Below, one piece after another: positions 19,078 through 50,343 of a DNA stretch of 50,343 bases (position 1 is its first letter; every line of letters starts with the position of its first letter). This stretch comes from Escherichia phage vB_Eco_mar001J1: the sequence record NC_048204.1. One strand, given 5' to 3'. The notes below the pieces were generated by a model. The model was not told the DNA's origin and searched no databases. It was given only the letters and a program-made list of their open reading frames with translations. The translations under genes were made by a program, and so were the position numbers.

Positions 19078-19554
19078 CTACTTTCCGTGGTTTATGTGGA
19101 ATTTGTTTAAAACTTCAATCTCTATCCTCTTTTCTGCCGCATCCTGAAATGAATCAAAGTAAAATTCATGCCTAACACCATCAATCTTTGCTCTTGCAAT
19201 CCATTTTCCGCGACTAAAGTTTACCCCAGTAATTCCCGTCTTGCTGTTCCTGTAAAGCGACTTATTCTTGTTGTTAACACTCATTCTAACAAGTCTTAAG
19301 TTTGAAATATTGTCGTTCATTGTGTTGTGATCTATGTGATCAACTTGCATTCCATGCGGTATTTCTCCATTATGAATTTCCCAAACTATCCTGCTCCTGT
19401 AGTATCTTTCTACATCAATTGATATTCTAACCCTTTCTCCACTCTTCTTGCTTTTGCTTACGCTTCCTGCCTCACTTCCTTTCTTTATCCTTCTTCCTAC
19501 GTCTACAGCCCAAAATAACTTACCGTCATTATAATAAAAAATATCACGCCACAT
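19078..19554 (-). CDS. HNH-AP2 homing endonuclease inserted between tail genes I and J
   Basis: HNH motif MQVDHIDHNTMNDNISNLR; AP2-like TGITGV..W; start at MWRDIFYY with AAGGA RBS. Confidence 0.75.
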   Translation of the reverse strand: MWRDIFYYNDGKLFWAVDVGRRIKKGSEAGSVSKSKKSGERVRISIDVERYYRSRIVWEIHNGEIPHGMQVDHIDHNTMNDNISNLRLVRMSVNNKNKSLYRNSKTGITGVNFSRGKWIARAKIDGVRHEFYFDSFQDAAEKRIEIEVLNKFHINHGK

Positions 19555-19615: not shown

Positions 19616-20212
19616 TTATGCTTTGTCCTCTGCGTAGCTGCCAGCCGACCAGATCGCTCCGCCTACTGTCCTATATCCATATGGCAAAGGAACCGGATAA
19701 CCTGCCGCCGTGGTATTTACTGCGCCGCCGAAAGCGTAAGAAGGCTTGTTTTCTGCTGATTGGCTTTGTAGTTTCATTCCGCCATGCTGCGGCGAGATCA
19801 TTTGCATGACACCGCCAAGCGCGATAGCACCACCCATCATAAATGCGGAAGATGCAAAAGCGCCCATAGCCGCCAGGCTTGCACCGCCAGTAATGAACGC
19901 AGTAGCCATAATTACAGCACCAAAAACAACATTGAACAGGCCGCCGGACTTAGAACCAGTTGGAACAGGAACTATTCTAACCTCTCGCGCGCACTTCCAT
20001 GATTTTTCATCATGCTGACCAATGTTTTTACCGTCAACGAATATAGCATACTTCATGCGCGATCCTACTTCGCTTTGCATGTAGTCTTTGAACCCTTCAA
20101 CCTGGGAAGACAACGCGCGTATTGCTTCTGGGTATGAGTCAACCGCCATTTTGTGAAAGACGCCAAATCTACGCCCCAGGGAACCAGATAGCTTAATTAC
20201 TTTCAATGTCAT
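19616..20212 (-). CDS. Tail assembly protein I-like
   Basis: Gly/Ala-rich C-terminal hydrophobic region; lambda order K-I-J. Confidence 0.7.
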   Translation of the reverse strand: MTLKVIKLSGSLGRRFGVFHKMAVDSYPEAIRALSSQVEGFKDYMQSEVGSRMKYAIFVDGKNIGQHDEKSWKCAREVRIVPVPTGSKSGGLFNVVFGAVIMATAFITGGASLAAMGAFASSAFMMGGAIALGGVMQMISPQHGGMKLQSQSAENKPSYAFGGAVNTTAAGYPVPLPYGYRTVGGAIWSAGSYAEDKA

Positions 20213-20924: not shown

Positions 20925-21685
20925 TATTGATTCCTCCGTAGCAGTGACGCCACCGCGCAACCGCCGAAATCCAACTCGTTTTGCTGACCGAATCTCAATT
21001 TGCAAGCCGTTACAGTTCCTGCGCAATAGTCTTGCGATGGATCTGTTACTGGCTTATTGTCTTTATCGAACATTGCCGATCCGTTATAAGAGCAACCCTT
21101 TCCGCTCCTGTACCACCCCCTTTGCGCCCAATAGCAAACGCTTTGAGTGATGCGCGGCGGGATCATCAGTCCATCCATATCGTAAGGCGACGTCAGATCA
21201 AATTTCGCCACCTCTCTATTATACTGGCTTGGGCGCTCAATGTAATAAACCAATTTTCTGTAAGCGCCATCTTTGATTGCCCCGCCTTCTCCGATAAATT
21301 CCTTTGCCGTGATCCAGAAAGTCACCTTTGCTTGCATCATGCCATTGTAATTTCTGATCATGGCGCTAACCCTGCTGTCAAGGTTTGACACTATAAGCTG
21401 AGGCTTATCTGCCCTGCCGTTACTTGTGAAGTTAATCCCGCTCACACCGAAAGGCCGCGCTCCGTAAACCTCACCCTGGAAAATAATATCTTTCGGCGGC
21501 AAGATTCCAGTTTGCTGCGCTTGCATTAATTCTTCGGCAGTATAAGAGATGTTTTCATTGTGAAATCGGTAAATATTTGCTCCGAACTTCGTCCCGTCAA
21601 TCTCTACAAGCGTTATAATTTCGCCTGGGTACAAACTTTGTAGGCAGTTCTCAAACTCAACTCTACCTGATTCTTTATTAGCCAT
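20924..21685 (-). CDS. Minor tail protein L-like
   Basis: Synteny and C-terminal cysteine cluster as in lambda gpL; AGGAGG RBS. Confidence 0.75.
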   Translation of the reverse strand: MANKESGRVEFENCLQSLYPGEIITLVEIDGTKFGANIYRFHNENISYTAEELMQAQQTGILPPKDIIFQGEVYGARPFGVSGINFTSNGRADKPQLIVSNLDSRVSAMIRNYNGMMQAKVTFWITAKEFIGEGGAIKDGAYRKLVYYIERPSQYNREVAKFDLTSPYDMDGLMIPPRITQSVCYWAQRGWYRSGKGCSYNGSAMFDKDNKPVTDPSQDYCAGTVTACKLRFGQQNELDFGGCAVASLLRRNQ

Positions 21686-22100: not shown

Positions 22101-24782
22101 TCAACCTCGCTTGCTCATAACAAATTCGTAAACCTCCCCACCCTGCATACAGGAACGTTTAATCATATCAGTAAAGATCATCTTAACGCCAGTTTCGATG
22201 CCCTTCGGATCGTTGCCGTTAGTGATGCTAACATCAATCCCGCCGATGTTAAATTGAGGTGCTCCACCAGTTACAGCGCCACCGCCAGTATAGCCGGAAC
22301 TACCAACAACGCCGCCGTTAGCATAGCCTCGCATCATGCGGTACAAGTTGCCTACCCCGATACGCTGCGTCGCCTCCTTCGTCATGACAAATTCACCTTT
22401 ATGGACAATTCCGGCTGGCTCATACTTCCCGCCGTCGCCAGTGTATCCACCGCCAGCAAATCCGCCAATGTTCTTAAGCAAGCTCCCCATCGTCCAGGTT
22501 TGACCACCCATCAGGCCAGATAACGCATTAAAGACAACCATTTTCGTGATCATCTGAATAATCATTTTGATGATAGCCGTCGAGAAGTCTTTAAAGTTTG
22601 CCTTGCCAGTAGCGATAAAATTCGCTAATTGGTTTGTAAGGCCGTTTAACGCCTCGCTTGCGATCTGCTGAACATTGCCATAGGCATTGTTTGCATCTTC
22701 CGCGAATAGCTCCCATGCGTTTTTTGCTCCTGCCAACCAGTTGCCTTGAACCTCATCCTGTGTCTGATAATACTGCTTAAGTTTCGCCTCCATTTGCTGA
22801 AAAACTTCATCGCTAACGCTTCCTCCTTGCGCCTCGTAGTCGGTGCGCAGCTTGCGTAACTCTAGCTCACGCTCGATCTGCTTTTCAGTGTAGCCAAGTT
22901 GCTTAAGGCCAAGCACATCAATAGCCGCCTGCGTTTCACGGATAAACTTAATGCTATCTTGCTCCAGCTTGTTTTTGCGCTCCTGCAAAACAATCTGATC
23001 CCCTAATTCAGCCTTTTGCCTTGCCATTTCCAAAACGGATTTTTGCTCATTTAGTAGCGCCTGTTCCGCTCCGGTCAATTTACGCTTGCTCTGCGCATCC
23101 TCCAGGATCTCGATCTGCTTTTCGATGCTCCATAAAGATTTACGCTGGCGAGAAATAACATCATTAACAGTGCGATGCTCTTTAAGCGTTTCCAGTTGCG
23201 CTTTTAAAACGTACAACTCTTTATCAAGCTGCTCAGTCGGGCCGCGAACTATTCCGCCTTTAGCCTCTTTCTTTTTCTGCTCCTGCTTCTTGATCTCCTC
23301 AAGCTCTTTGCGTCTGAACTCCACGTTTTCAGCCGCACGCTTTTTCAGTTCTTCATCAGCCGAACGCGCCACGCCCTTCTGATCTTCAATGGCTTTGTTT
23401 AAAGCCTCCTGTGCTGCTCTCACTCTGTTCAAGGCCAGGTTTTCTTTGTCGATGCGCTCCGCTCGTTCAGCCATGTCCTTATTAGCATCTTTTACGACCT
23501 TTCCAATGTCTTCATAAGTGTTAAGTGCAAACTTAAGCATAGGATTAACATAGCCAAGCTCTTTACCTAACAGGCCGCCGGACGGGGAAGCGTAATCACG
23601 CTTCGCTTTCAAAACTTCATACCACGACTCGCCCAACTCAAGGATTTTATTTTTGTGGTTTGCAATGTCGTTATTCAGGCCAACAAAGCTAGATGCGCCT
23701 TTGTACTCGTTGACTTTCTTTTTTGCGTCATCATAAGTCATGCCAACGTCAACCAGTTTTTTAATCGCCTCGCTCGCGCCGTCTTTCGTGGTGATGTAAG
23801 CCTTTGCCAGATCTTCGGCGCTTTCGCCTGTCTTGTCGGAAAGCTCCTGGATTCCGGTAGCAATCTTTTCGGCAAAATCACCAGTCAAGCCAGTTGTTTC
23901 CTGAATGGTTTTTTTAATTGCCTCAAACTCTGTCTGTGTTTTGTAGGCATTATATGCAGCAATTGCCAGCGTGCCGGAAAGCAAGCCAAACGCAACGTTT
24001 ACCGGATTAAGGAAAGATAGCAACGCTTTTAAAGCATTGGATGCGCCACCAAAAGAATCCTTAATCTGTCCGCCCTGCTGGATTGCAACCAGCCAAACAG
24101 GCATACCAGAAGCAAGTGAAGTCACCACGTCTGTGATCTGCATTGGCAATAGCTTCATTGCTTGATTGTATTGGCCTGTAGAAATCCCAAGTTTTTGGAT
24201 CTGCTTTTCCTGCTCTTTCAGTCTTGCGATGTAAGGTGCTGCCTCCTGGCTAACTCCAAGCTGTGCCGCTTTCATTTCCAGCAATTCAGACTTGCTTTTT
24301 CCGGCTGCTTCTTCCTGCTCACGCAAAGCCTGGATGAATTTTTTAGCCTCTTCCGCTGCACGCGCTTTGTTCTTTGATTCCTCAAGCGCCGCGCGGCCTT
24401 CCTCTGTCATCGCTTTTTTGGTTGCGATCAGCTTGTTTTGCTGTGTCTCAAGAATTGCCCCAAGCTCAAAAAAAGTCTCATCAGGAACAATGCCCTTTTT
24501 CCATAGCGCATCAAGCTGTGTCGCTGCCTTTCGCAGCTTATCCATCTTTGATGCGGTGGGATCAATTGACTCCTGGATTTTCTTAAATTCTGCTTTCTGG
24601 CGCGCCAATTCTTCGGCAAACTGTTTAGCTTGCTGTCGCGCCACAACCTCAGAATCAACAAATTCATTAACGCTTTTTTTTGCGTCGTCGTTTGCCTTCT
24701 TGAATTGCTGCAATGATTTAACAGCATTATTGACCTGCGACACGTCAACGCCTAGCGTTAGGCCAGCGTATTTCTCAGCCAT
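22101..24782 (-). CDS. Tail tape measure protein
   Basis: 893 aa, extended coiled-coil (Ala/Glu/Lys/Gln-rich), Gly-rich C-terminal segment; GGAGG RBS. Confidence 0.85.
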   Translation of the reverse strand: MAEKYAGLTLGVDVSQVNNAVKSLQQFKKANDDAKKSVNEFVDSEVVARQQAKQFAEELARQKAEFKKIQESIDPTASKMDKLRKAATQLDALWKKGIVPDETFFELGAILETQQNKLIATKKAMTEEGRAALEESKNKARAAEEAKKFIQALREQEEAAGKSKSELLEMKAAQLGVSQEAAPYIARLKEQEKQIQKLGISTGQYNQAMKLLPMQITDVVTSLASGMPVWLVAIQQGGQIKDSFGGASNALKALLSFLNPVNVAFGLLSGTLAIAAYNAYKTQTEFEAIKKTIQETTGLTGDFAEKIATGIQELSDKTGESAEDLAKAYITTKDGASEAIKKLVDVGMTYDDAKKKVNEYKGASSFVGLNNDIANHKNKILELGESWYEVLKAKRDYASPSGGLLGKELGYVNPMLKFALNTYEDIGKVVKDANKDMAERAERIDKENLALNRVRAAQEALNKAIEDQKGVARSADEELKKRAAENVEFRRKELEEIKKQEQKKKEAKGGIVRGPTEQLDKELYVLKAQLETLKEHRTVNDVISRQRKSLWSIEKQIEILEDAQSKRKLTGAEQALLNEQKSVLEMARQKAELGDQIVLQERKNKLEQDSIKFIRETQAAIDVLGLKQLGYTEKQIERELELRKLRTDYEAQGGSVSDEVFQQMEAKLKQYYQTQDEVQGNWLAGAKNAWELFAEDANNAYGNVQQIASEALNGLTNQLANFIATGKANFKDFSTAIIKMIIQMITKMVVFNALSGLMGGQTWTMGSLLKNIGGFAGGGYTGDGGKYEPAGIVHKGEFVMTKEATQRIGVGNLYRMMRGYANGGVVGSSGYTGGGAVTGGAPQFNIGGIDVSITNGNDPKGIETGVKMIFTDMIKRSCMQGGEVYEFVMSKRG

Positions 24783-24799: not shown

Positions 24800-24822
24800 T
24801 TAAAAAAGCGCCTTTCGGCGCT
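24800..24822 (-). terminator. Stem-loop terminator/attenuator directly upstream of tape measure RBS
   Basis: AGCGCC tttc GGCGCT followed by TTTTTT. Confidence 0.6.
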
Positions 24823-25456
24823 TATGTTTTGTTTGAATGAATCATTTCTAGCGCCTTTTGTTCCATGATGCGCAAATCATTTAGCGCCATCTCCCGATCC
24901 TCAATCTTGTAAATGTCAAAAAGCATAGGCAAAACGTTATAGTCGAACCCATACACGCTGCCGCTAGTCGATCTCCATTGCGTCTGCATAGCGCAAAACA
25001 GATCCCAAGATTGAAACATTGATTCATCAAAAATTACCTCCGGCGGATCCTCCCCTTCGTAGTCTGAACGGGATAGGCCGACGGCCTCTAATTGTGCGTC
25101 AGTTGGCGGCTTGAGGTAAAACAGGTAAACCGCCCGCTTTAGTTTTTTACCCGCTGCCCCGCAAGTGCTTTCATATAATGACCAGTCAGCGATAATGACG
25201 CAGAAGGGTAATAATCCAGCAATTTAGCAACGTTTTCCTCGTTAAATTCATCTTCCAGATCCCAACCGGAAGCAAGGAAGGTGATCATTTCTACGTCGCT
25301 CATCGGCTTTTCTGCCGTGTATCGTTCGTGAATCTCGCTTGCCTTCTTGTGGCGCACGGTAAAAACAATAACTTGCTCATCACCATTTGGAAGCACAAAA
25401 GAAACAGGTAGCTTAAAATCAGGCAGTGGGCCTAACGTTAGTTTCATCTTTGCCAT
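24822..25456 (-). CDS. Tail assembly chaperone GT fusion made by -1 ribosomal frameshift
   Basis: Downstream -1 frame is open from the slippery site to 24822; standard G/GT arrangement before the tape measure gene. Confidence 0.6.
25139..25456 (-). CDS. Tail assembly chaperone G
   Basis: 105 aa, acidic; AAGGAG RBS; ends at the slippery site. Confidence 0.7.
   Translation of the reverse strand: MAKMKLTLGPLPDFKLPVSFVLPNGDEQVIVFTVRHKKASEIHERYTAEKPMSDVEMITFLASGWDLEDEFNEENVAKLLDYYPSASLSLTGHYMKALAGQRVKN
25142..25148 (-). other. Programmed -1 frameshift slippery heptamer A AAA AAC
   Basis: Heptamer sits immediately before the G stop codon. Confidence 0.6.
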
Positions 25457-25470
25457 CTCAAGATCTCCTT

Positions 25471-25532: not shown

Positions 25533-25557
25533 AAAGGGGCGCAACGCCCCTTGTTTT
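25533..25557. terminator. Bidirectional stem-loop after the tail tube gene
   Basis: GGGGCGC a ACGCCCC flanked by A-run and T-run. Confidence 0.65.
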
Positions 25558-26218
25558 AATTGATGTCGGAAGATAAGAACGTAAATCGACCTTTCAGAGA
25601 TACGGAAAGGGAAACAGTTTCCATTTCGTTCATAGTGGTTTGCGGAATGTCATTAAAAGACAATACGCCAGCCCAGCAACGCATCTCTTTAGCTTTCGGC
25701 ACGTACATACGCAAAGCGGTTACGTCGCCGGATTCCTCAGCCTCGCGCAAGATCGGATAAATCGGATTATCATATTCATGTGCGAAAGTATAGGTAAGAG
25801 AAACGGCGCTCTTGTAGGTCGGCAACTGCTGCTCCTGGTCATCAGCCAAACACTGATAAGTGTAATACTGTTGCTCGCCGCCGTCCTGCGCAAGATCCTG
25901 TACGCAAGGAATCTCTACCCATGATTTTACTTCTCGGAAGGTTGCTGTATTTTCGCCAACAGGAAACACGTTAGTATCAGTAGTATCAACCCCTTCAAGG
26001 GTAACATTTTCATTATCGGTAACAGCCTTAACGCGCAACACACGGCTAACCAACTTACCCCACGAAGACGTCTCAATCAGAACATAAGCGCCCTTCTTGA
26101 TATTTTTTGTGTCGCTCGCTGTAAATACAGGCTCCTTAGCGTTAGTGATAGCCGTAGCCTGAATCGGATCGCCCATATTAACGCCGATGAAAATTTGAGA
26201 ACCATTAGGCAAGTGCAT
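25556..26218 (-). CDS. Major tail (tube) protein
   Basis: Position immediately upstream of G/GT; 220 aa. Confidence 0.6.
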   Translation of the reverse strand: MHLPNGSQIFIGVNMGDPIQATAITNAKEPVFTASDTKNIKKGAYVLIETSSWGKLVSRVLRVKAVTDNENVTLEGVDTTDTNVFPVGENTATFREVKSWVEIPCVQDLAQDGGEQQYYTYQCLADDQEQQLPTYKSAVSLTYTFAHEYDNPIYPILREAEESGDVTALRMYVPKAKEMRCWAGVLSFNDIPQTTMNEMETVSLSVSLKGRFTFLSSDIN

Positions 26219-50186: not shown

Positions 50187-50343
50187 TGTTTCATCGAAAC
50201 GAAACAACCAAAAGGTAAAATTATGTCCAGCAAGTTTTTAGTAGTTCGCGTATATAATCATGACAACGAATCTTCTTCTGAAATCCCGACAATTTATGAC
50301 AGGGATTTTGGATGGAGTGAGCAATCGGCTGTTGAAAATGAGC

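What the first reader, a model, noticed from the sequence alone, without database searches (positions are those of the whole stretch)
24822..25456. Programmed -1 frameshift site for the tail chaperone G/GT pair
The slippery heptamer A AAA AAC (minus strand, 25142-25148) sits immediately before the G stop codon, and the -1 frame stays open for about 107 codons to 24822, ending just before the hairpin that precedes the tape measure gene. This is the conserved G/GT strategy of long-tailed phages.
Basis: partly seen in the sequence, partly recalled or inferred. Interest (0 to 1): 0.4.

Follow-up and report, generated by a model that had tools for sequence, protein, structure and literature searches.

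The report
Tail chaperone G/GT frameshift site
This is the ordinary, already documented programmed -1 ribosomal frameshift that lets a T1-like coliphage make a short and a long tail-assembly chaperone from one gene pair; the public record of this phage simply does not annotate it.

Summary
On the minus strand a 105-codon ORF (25456-25139) ends GTA AAA AAC TAA. The heptamer A_AAA_AAC (25148-25142) is in the correct register and abuts the stop. The -1 frame stays open for 108 codons to the TAA at 24824-24822.

The window is Escherichia phage vB_Eco_mar001J1 (Drexlerviridae, Warwickvirus). The pair lies between the major tail and tape measure genes.

- G is Pfam Phage_TAC_4, the -1 part is DUF1799, and the fused 211-aa protein matches one PHROG end to end.
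- In every intact homologous locus examined, down to about 25% identity, the second part is in the -1 frame.
- The heptamer is invariant at synonymous sites, or is replaced by G_GGA_AAC.
- In Dhillonvirus a -1-frame stop abuts the heptamer, so the shift can only occur there.
- The 40 codons before the first in-frame ATG evolve as coding sequence in the -1 frame only.
- A hairpin 7 nt downstream is common but not universal.

It is not new: phage TLS (tfmS) and OzMSK annotate the same fusion, and the papers on phages Stevie and U136B report it. The fusion protein has not been demonstrated for this phage. Interest is low.

The parts
25139..25456 (-). Gene G (annotated tfmA): short tail assembly / tape measure chaperone, 105 aa, 11.9 kDa
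   Evidence: ORF; PF08748 Phage_TAC_4 E 5e-31; annotated tfmA in NC_048206; mass
25465..25470 (-). Shine-Dalgarno AAGGAG of G; the best 9-nt anti-SD duplex segment ends 7 nt before the ATG
   Evidence: sequence; anti-SD duplex -9.3 kcal/mol
25142..25148 (-). Slippery heptamer A_AAA_AAC in the zero-frame register X_XXY_YYZ
   Evidence: Identical in all intact Tempevirinae, T1, Dhillonvirus and OzMSK loci. Synonymous-site diversity is 0.0 at its three third positions against 0.4-0.75 at neighbouring ones
25139..25141 (-). TAA stop of G, immediately 3' of the heptamer
   Evidence: The stop is 0-1 codon after the shift motif in all homologues examined
24822..25141 (-). T segment read in the -1 frame (codons continue from 25142 CTA). 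106 aa are added to G, giving GT of 211 aa and 24.3 kDa. The stop is TAA at 24824-24822
   Evidence: PF08809 DUF1799 E 1.5e-12, starting at T residue 25, upstream of the first Met. phrog_680 and phrog_17368. Synonymous:non-synonymous 2680:453 in this frame only
25105..25134 (-). Candidate stimulatory hairpin: GGCGGUUU (25134-25127) pairs with AAGCCGCC (25112-25105), 14-nt loop, 7-nt spacer after the heptamer
   Evidence: Part of the minimum-free-energy fold, -13.2 kcal/mol for the 64-nt segment, but z-score only -0.69. The same helix appears in 14 of 19 unique homologues. 91% of cells are paired against 31-54% when slid, with 2 compensatory pairs. Reduced synonymous diversity lies over its 5' arm. 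It is absent in the L027-L029 clade
25017..25019 (-). First canonical start codon in the -1 frame (Met44 of the T part), used by some annotators for a 65-aa ORF
   Evidence: The GGAGG segment ends 15 nt upstream, against 5-7 nt for real genes here. This Met is not conserved in Webervirus or Dhillonvirus
24806..24823 (-). Terminator-like hairpin plus T run, overlapping the T stop and preceding the tape measure gene
   Evidence: T1 and Sip records annotate a terminator at the same place
25534..25552 (-). Terminator-like hairpin between the major tail gene and G
   Evidence: Annotated in T1 and Sip at the same place
25556..26218 (-). Major tail protein gene (upstream neighbour)
22101..24782 (-). 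Tape measure protein gene (downstream neighbour)

Best explanation
Most ribosomes translating G (25456-25139, minus strand) terminate at TAA and release the 105-aa chaperone. A small fraction slip back one nucleotide on A_AAA_AAC (25148-25142). In the tandem-slip model, tRNA-Lys on AAA and tRNA-Asn on AAC re-pair with AAA AAA. Reading then continues with CUA in the -1 frame for 106 more codons to the TAA at 24824-24822. The product is a 211-aa GT fusion (predicted junction ...GQRVKN-LKRAVYL...). By analogy with lambda, the G part binds the tape measure protein and the T part recruits the major tail protein, and neither ends up in the virion. The heptamer is a weak one in E. coli, which fits a low GT:G ratio. 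A hairpin 7 nt downstream, and possibly the adjacent stop codon, may raise the rate. What is shown: the sequence anatomy, the family memberships, and the conservation and coding signature. What is inferred: the shift itself, its efficiency, the role of the hairpin, and the protein functions.
For: Anatomy.
Gene order major tail, G, T, TMP.
Families: G is PF08748 (E 5e-31) and T is PF08809 (E 1.5e-12). The fused protein matches phrog_17368 over positions 1-211 of 213 (E 2.5e-99).
Breadth: tblastn of the fusion finds 1123 phage records; 1081 have one place covering at least 80% of the query, and every listed full-length match is in two pieces.
Frame: in all intact loci fetched, T is in the -1 frame.
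Shift motif: A_AAA_AAC in Tempevirinae, T1, Dhillonvirus and OzMSK. A different heptamer of the same form, G_GGA_AAC, occurs in Ralstonia phage YO005_1, in L032 and in Pseudomonas PseuP_222.
Shift window: in Dhillonvirus the -1-frame stop TGA abuts the heptamer, so only the heptamer is available for the shift.
No own start: there is no ATG, GTG or TTG in the -1 frame before Met44.
Coding signature: codons 3-43 have third-position diversity 0.43 against 0.14 and 0.09 at positions 1 and 2. Synonymous:non-synonymous counts are 2680:453 in the -1 frame against 154:3245 and 471:2946 in the other frames.
Site selection: synonymous diversity is zero at the heptamer.
Prior annotation: TLS tfmS and an OzMSK CDS are annotated as two-piece joins over the homologous site.
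Literature: the frameshift is stated for T1-like Stevie and U136B. The lambda model is summarised in PMC5009743. A_AAA_AAC and G_GGA_AAC are low-efficiency but used motifs in E. coli (PMC4066793).
Against: No protein-level evidence exists for this phage. Its own record annotates only G, and the paper describing it does not contain the words frameshift or chaperone. A_AAA_AAC is a poor shifter in E. coli. The hairpin is not thermodynamically unusual (z -0.69), and one clade lacks it. Webervirus, Taid and MUC-5 homologues lack any heptamer and have only A_AAA_G or A_AAG, so tandem slippage is not the universal mode in this family.
Confidence: 0.9

Rival explanations
1. T is an independent small gene translated from its own ATG at 25019 (65 aa, 7.8 kDa), as several relatives' records annotate it, and there is no fusion.
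For: The ATG at 25019 is the first canonical start in that frame. A 65-aa CDS is annotated in Sip and JLBYU07. A GGAGG lies upstream. The OzMSK annotators note an independent RBS in addition to the frameshift.
Against: The 40 codons upstream of this ATG show a clear coding signature in the same frame. The Pfam DUF1799 and phrog_680 matches begin at T residues 25 and 11, upstream of Met44. The GGAGG segment ends 15 nt from the ATG, against 5-7 nt for G, TMP and the major tail gene. The Met is replaced by Thr in Webervirus and is absent in Dhillonvirus, where the first start is 200 nt past the G stop.
Confidence: 0.05
2. The same GT protein arises by transcriptional slippage. RNA polymerase adds one A in the A6 run, so a minority of mRNAs carry G and T in one frame.
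For: The site is a run of six A. A one-base insertion would give a fusion of the same length, with junction ...VKK-LKR. Homopolymer length differs (A5) in two low-quality contigs.
Against: From general knowledge of E. coli RNA polymerase, six A is shorter than the runs that give appreciable slippage. Homologues replace the run with G_GGA_AAC, which keeps the tandem-tRNA pattern but is not a homopolymer. The register of the motif relative to the G frame is strictly conserved, which matters for ribosomes and not for polymerase. The two A5 contigs carry other frame breaks as well, so they are sequencing errors.
Confidence: 0.04
3. Chance or artefact: a random heptamer next to a random open frame, or an assembly indel splitting a single gene.
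For: In-frame heptamers are common in this window: 77 in ORFs of at least 80 aa.
Against: The same two-frame arrangement is found in independent genomes: 83 records cover at least 80% of the 901-bp region by megablast, and 1081 records cover at least 80% of the fused protein by tblastn. Synonymous sites at the heptamer are invariant. The coding signature is in the -1 frame.
Confidence: 0.01

Closest known systems
Phage TLS tfmA/tfmS (AY308796) and other T1-like phages (OzMSK, Stevie, U136B)
   Same: Orthologous cassette: the same Pfam families, the same A_AAA_AAC TAA site and the same -1 frame, about 70% nucleotide identity. TLS and OzMSK annotate the fusion as a joined CDS. The Stevie and U136B papers mention the frameshifted chaperone.
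   Different: The mar001J1 record annotates only tfmA. Its hairpin lacks the inner CUG/CAG extension seen in TLS and T1: -13.2 kcal/mol against about -15 to -20.
Bacteriophage lambda G / GT (Levin et al. 1993; Xu, Hendrix and Duda 2004, 2013, 2014, as summarised in PMC5009743)
   Same: Position between the major tail and tape measure genes. A -1 shift near the 3' end of G on an X_XXY_YYZ heptamer. A longer fusion made at a low level. Presumed roles are G binding the tape measure and T recruiting the tail tube protein.
   Different: Lambda uses G_GGA_AAG (from memory), while this site has A_AAA_AAC directly abutting the stop. There is no detectable sequence relation to the lambda G and T families: the Pfam scan at E up to 1 returned only PF08748 and PF08809.
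IS element -1 frameshift sites using A_AAA_AAC or G_GGA_AAC (PMC4066793)
   Same: The same weak heptamers used for a low-level fusion product in enterobacteria.
   Different: Transposase genes, unrelated proteins.

Membership tests
G/GT-type tail assembly chaperone pair with programmed -1 frameshift (Xu, Hendrix and Duda 2004) | Pair of ORFs located between the major tail (tube) gene and the tape measure gene | tested here: met
   Major tail 25556-26218, G 25139-25456, T 24822-25141, TMP 22101-24782, all on the minus strand
G/GT-type tail assembly chaperone pair with programmed -1 frameshift (Xu, Hendrix and Duda 2004) | Downstream ORF in the -1 frame relative to G, overlapping its 3' end, without a start codon of its own at its 5' end | tested here: met
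   The -1 frame is open from 27 codons before the G stop. There is no ATG, GTG or TTG until 122 nt after the G stop
G/GT-type tail assembly chaperone pair with programmed -1 frameshift (Xu, Hendrix and Duda 2004) | Slippery X_XXY_YYZ heptamer in the zero-frame register inside the overlap | tested here: met
   A_AAA_AAC at 25148-25142. Invariant at synonymous sites. Replaced by G_GGA_AAC in distant homologues
G/GT-type tail assembly chaperone pair with programmed -1 frameshift (Xu, Hendrix and Duda 2004) | Arrangement conserved among relatives, and the start-less part under protein-coding selection | tested here: met
   The -1 frame in all intact loci. Synonymous:non-synonymous 2680:453 in the -1 frame only
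G/GT-type tail assembly chaperone pair with programmed -1 frameshift (Xu, Hendrix and Duda 2004) | Fusion protein made at a few per cent of G and required for tail assembly | not testable with these tools
   Needs western blot or mass spectrometry, plus genetics
Pfam PF08748 Phage_TAC_4 | Score above the gathering cut-off (21.1 bits) | tested here: met
   107.9 bits, residues 1-105 on profile positions 1-124
Pfam PF08809 DUF1799 (the T-type extension in this lineage) | Score above the gathering cut-off (26 bits) | tested here: met
   48 bits, T residues 25-103 on profile positions 3-80
Lambda gpG and gpT sequence families | Detectable sequence similarity to the lambda G and T Pfam families | tested here: not met
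   The Pfam scan at E up to 1 returned only PF08748 and PF08809. No solved homologue was found by sequence. A fold comparison was impossible because the AlphaFold2 model had pLDDT 45
Stimulated -1 PRF cassette (heptamer, 5-9 nt spacer, downstream structure) | Conserved downstream RNA structure with covariation | tested here: inconclusive
   An 8-bp hairpin lies 7 nt downstream. The same helix occurs in 14 of 19 unique homologues, with 2 compensatory pairs and 91% of cells paired. Against it: z-score -0.69, and the helix is absent in the L027-L029 clade

The most novel reading that the evidence does not exclude
In the Phage_TAC_4/DUF1799 chaperone family the shift cassette may be a fixed three-part unit: a deliberately weak heptamer (A_AAA_AAC or G_GGA_AAC), a stop codon 0-1 codon downstream, and a hairpin starting 6-7 nt downstream. 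Slippage might then be helped by the pause at the stop, for example P-site slippage of tRNA-Asn with the stop in the A site, giving VKN-L. Some lineages (Webervirus, Taid, MUC-5) would have moved to single-tRNA slippage on A_AAA_G or A_AAG. That would be a natural series for studying how GT:G ratios are tuned.
Probability: 0.2. Interest if true: 0.3.

Novelty: already known. Interest (0 to 1): 0.1.

Why it matters
The main value is to annotation. The public record of this phage (NC_048206/LR027388), like those of T1 and most other related records inspected here, lacks the 211-aa GT product or instead lists a truncated 65-aa ORF. The chaperone's N-terminal core is also the reported target of a bacterial immune sensor (Avs17; bioRxiv 10.64898/2026.01.04.697583), so having both isoforms correct is useful. 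Nothing here changes the understanding of frameshifting or of tail assembly.

Tried and rejected
- The search for homologous proteins with the fused protein returned only three T-frame ORFs of 123-136 aa. It gave no fused or naturally in-frame GT proteins, so it was uninformative.
- A single-sequence AlphaFold2 model of GT had mean pLDDT 45. I therefore ran no fold search. Alignments built from fetched loci cannot be submitted to that tool.
- A PDB sequence search gave no meaningful hit. NCBIfam gave none either.
- Xu et al. 2004 (PMID 15469818) is not in the held library, so I could not check whether T1 is in their table.
- I looked for an SD-like stimulator upstream of the heptamer and found only weak matches, about -5 kcal/mol.
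- Hairpin stability against shuffled sequences was not significant.
- Two loci with T apparently in the +1 frame (L015, L031) turned out to be contigs with an A5 run and other frame breaks, so they are sequencing errors.
- I rejected independent initiation at ATG 25019, transcriptional slippage and chance, for the reasons given under the rival explanations.

Full report
**What is in the sequence**

On the minus strand an ORF starts at the ATG at 25456, preceded by AAGGAG (the best anti-SD duplex segment ends 7 nt before the ATG). It ends ...CGG GTA AAA AAC TAA. The TAA is at 25141-25139 and the ORF has 105 codons.

The seven bases 25148-25142 are A AAA AAC in the X_XXY_YYZ register of that ORF. 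Read from 25148 in the -1 frame, there are 108 sense codons and a TAA at 24824-24822. This frame is open from 27 codons upstream of the G stop. It contains no ATG, GTG or TTG until the ATG at 25019, which is Met44 of the -1 part.

The T stop overlaps a terminator-like hairpin at 24823-24806. The tape measure ATG follows at 24782.

**Is it more than chance?**

A heptamer alone is not. The window holds 77 in-frame X_XXY_YYZ heptamers in ORFs of at least 80 aa. This one is different in three ways. It sits directly at the stop. It opens into more than 100 codons. No other listed ORF of 50 aa or more lies on that strand there, apart from the 3' part of this same frame. The few other long -1 extensions run into other ORFs listed in the window.

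**Identity of the locus**

The window is Escherichia phage vB_Eco_mar001J1 (LR027388 / NC_048206; Drexlerviridae, Tempevirinae, Warwickvirus), matched at 100% identity. The gene order is major tail protein (25556-26218), G (annotated tfmA), an unannotated gap, then tape measure protein (22101-24782).

- G matches Pfam PF08748 Phage_TAC_4 (E 5e-31).
- The -1 part matches PF08809 DUF1799 (E 1.5e-12) from its residue 25, which is upstream of Met44.
- The conceptual fusion matches phrog_17368 over positions 1-211 of 213 (E 2.5e-99). That profile can only exist if fused proteins have been deposited.

**Comparative evidence**

tblastn of the fusion finds 1123 phage records. In 1081 of them one place covers at least 80% of the query, and every listed full-length match is in two pieces, that is, in two frames. 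I fetched about 40 loci, from Warwickvirus down to roughly 25% identity, including phages of Ralstonia, Pseudomonas and Pectobacterium.

- In every intact locus T is in the -1 frame relative to G.
- The two exceptions (L015, L031) have five A instead of six plus other frame breaks. They are sequencing errors.
- A_AAA_AAC followed at once by TAA is identical in Tempevirinae, T1, Dhillonvirus and OzMSK.
- Ralstonia phage YO005_1, the metagenomic locus L032 and Pseudomonas phage PseuP_222 carry a different heptamer of the same form, G_GGA_AAC, at the same place.
- In Dhillonvirus the -1-frame stop TGA directly abuts the heptamer, so the only place where a ribosome can change frame productively is the heptamer itself.

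Among 25 unique Drexlerviridae sequences, third-position diversity is 0.0 at the three zero-frame codons that make up the heptamer. This includes the silent third base of the Val or Ala codon that supplies the first A. Neighbouring synonymous sites show 0.4-0.75.

The 40 codons between the G stop and Met44 show third-position diversity of 0.43, against 0.14 and 0.09 at positions 1 and 2. Their synonymous:non-synonymous ratio is 2680:453 in the -1 frame, but 154:3245 and 471:2946 in the other two frames. Those other frames also contain stops in most sequences. This start-less stretch is therefore translated in the -1 frame. Met44 itself is Thr in Webervirus and absent in Dhillonvirus.

**Mechanism**

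The best explanation is -1 programmed ribosomal frameshifting on A_AAA_AAC. It yields G (105 aa, 11.9 kDa) and a minor GT fusion (211 aa, 24.3 kDa).

With tandem slippage after Asn decoding the junction would read ...VKN-LKR.... If slippage precedes Asn decoding, it would read ...VKK-LKR.

Sharma et al. (PMC4066793) classify A_AAA_AAC and G_GGA_AAC as low-efficiency heptamers in E. coli that IS elements nevertheless use. This fits the low GT:G ratio (about 1:30) reported for lambda (PMC5009743).

A hairpin (GGCGGUUU 25134-25127 paired with AAGCCGCC 25112-25105, 14-nt loop) starts 7 nt after the heptamer. The evidence for it as a stimulator is mixed.

- It is in the minimum-free-energy fold, but is no more stable than shuffled sequence (z -0.69).
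- The same helix is predicted in 14 of 19 unique homologous sequences, often extended by an inner CUG/CAG stem.
- Dhillonvirus has it with a different sequence (GGCGGCG/CGCCGCC), which gives two compensatory pairs.
- 91% of cells are paired, against 31-54% when the partner is slid.
- Synonymous diversity is reduced over its 5' arm.
- The L027-L029 clade lacks it, and L024 uses a different 3' arm.

I treat it as a plausible but unproven stimulator. No convincing SD-like element lies upstream of the heptamer.

The protein functions (G binding the tape measure, T recruiting the tail tube protein, both absent from virions) are inferred from lambda.

**Rivals**

- *Independent initiation at ATG 25019*, as annotated in Sip and JLBYU07. 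It cannot explain the coding signature and domain matches upstream of that ATG. Its GGAGG segment ends 15 nt away, against 5-7 nt for real genes here. It may coexist with the frameshift, but it is not the main route.
- *Transcriptional slippage on the A6 run.* It would give a fusion of the same length. The G_GGA_AAC homologues and the strict register of the motif argue for ribosomal slippage.
- *Chance or an assembly artefact.* Excluded by the number of independent genomes that share the arrangement.

**Comparison with what is known**

The orthologous site is already annotated as a joined CDS in phage TLS (tfmS) and in OzMSK, whose note reads "frameshifted product of tail assembly chaperone". 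The genome papers for the T1-like phages Stevie and U136B mention the frameshifted chaperone and cite Xu et al. 2004.

The mechanism class is that of lambda G/GT. The proteins belong to different sequence families (PF08748 and PF08809, not the lambda G/T families).

The mar001J1 record, like those of T1 and most other related records inspected, omits the fusion or lists a truncated 55-65-aa ORF. The practical outcome is an annotation correction.

**Verdict**

The feature is already known, and interest is low (0.1).

Noticed in passing
L004, L005, L039 (Webervirus); L036 (Pectobacterium phage Taid); L040 (Klebsiella phage MUC-5): The homologous G/T pairs are still in the 0 and -1 frames but have no X_XXY_YYZ heptamer. 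Only A_AAA_G (GCA AAA GTT TAA) or A_AAG lies 0-1 codon from the G stop. This suggests single-tRNA slippage in these lineages.
   Followed up: partly
window 25534-25552 and 24806-24823 (minus strand): The G/GT cassette is bracketed by two terminator-like hairpins with T runs. The T1 and Sip records annotate terminators at both equivalent places. This suggests stepwise transcriptional attenuation from the major tail gene to the chaperones to the tape measure gene.
   Followed up: partly
window 19078-19554 (minus strand): An HNH endonuclease gene is inserted between the I-like tail gene (19616-20212) and tspJ. T_TTA_AAC lies 8 codons before its stop, and the -1 frame there runs into the tspJ frame across a terminator-like hairpin. 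This is probably chance.
   Followed up: no
window 21242-21368: This 127-bp stretch matches both record positions 1-127 and 50217-50343 of NC_048206. The deposited linear record therefore has identical 127-bp ends, and the window is a re-joined permutation of it.
   Followed up: partly
window 25027 (minus strand): A zero-frame ATG has a GGAGG segment ending 7 nt upstream and heads a 48-codon ORF inside the T region. The GGAGG encodes the conserved Pro-Glu-Val of T, so this is probably a by-product and not a gene. In the neighbouring upstream codons (3-43), substitutions in that frame look non-coding.
   Followed up: partly
T versus G across loci L006-L035: The frameshift-only T part is consistently more conserved than G: for example 86% against 75%, 81% against 70%, and 66% against 56% in T1.
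   Followed up: no
hits H34, H99, H100, H103 (records named Campylobacter phage A13a, A14b, C4, A121): Records labelled as Campylobacter jejuni phages carry this Drexlerviridae-type cassette at 72-74% nucleotide identity. This is unexpected for that host and may reflect mislabelling or contamination.
   Followed up: no
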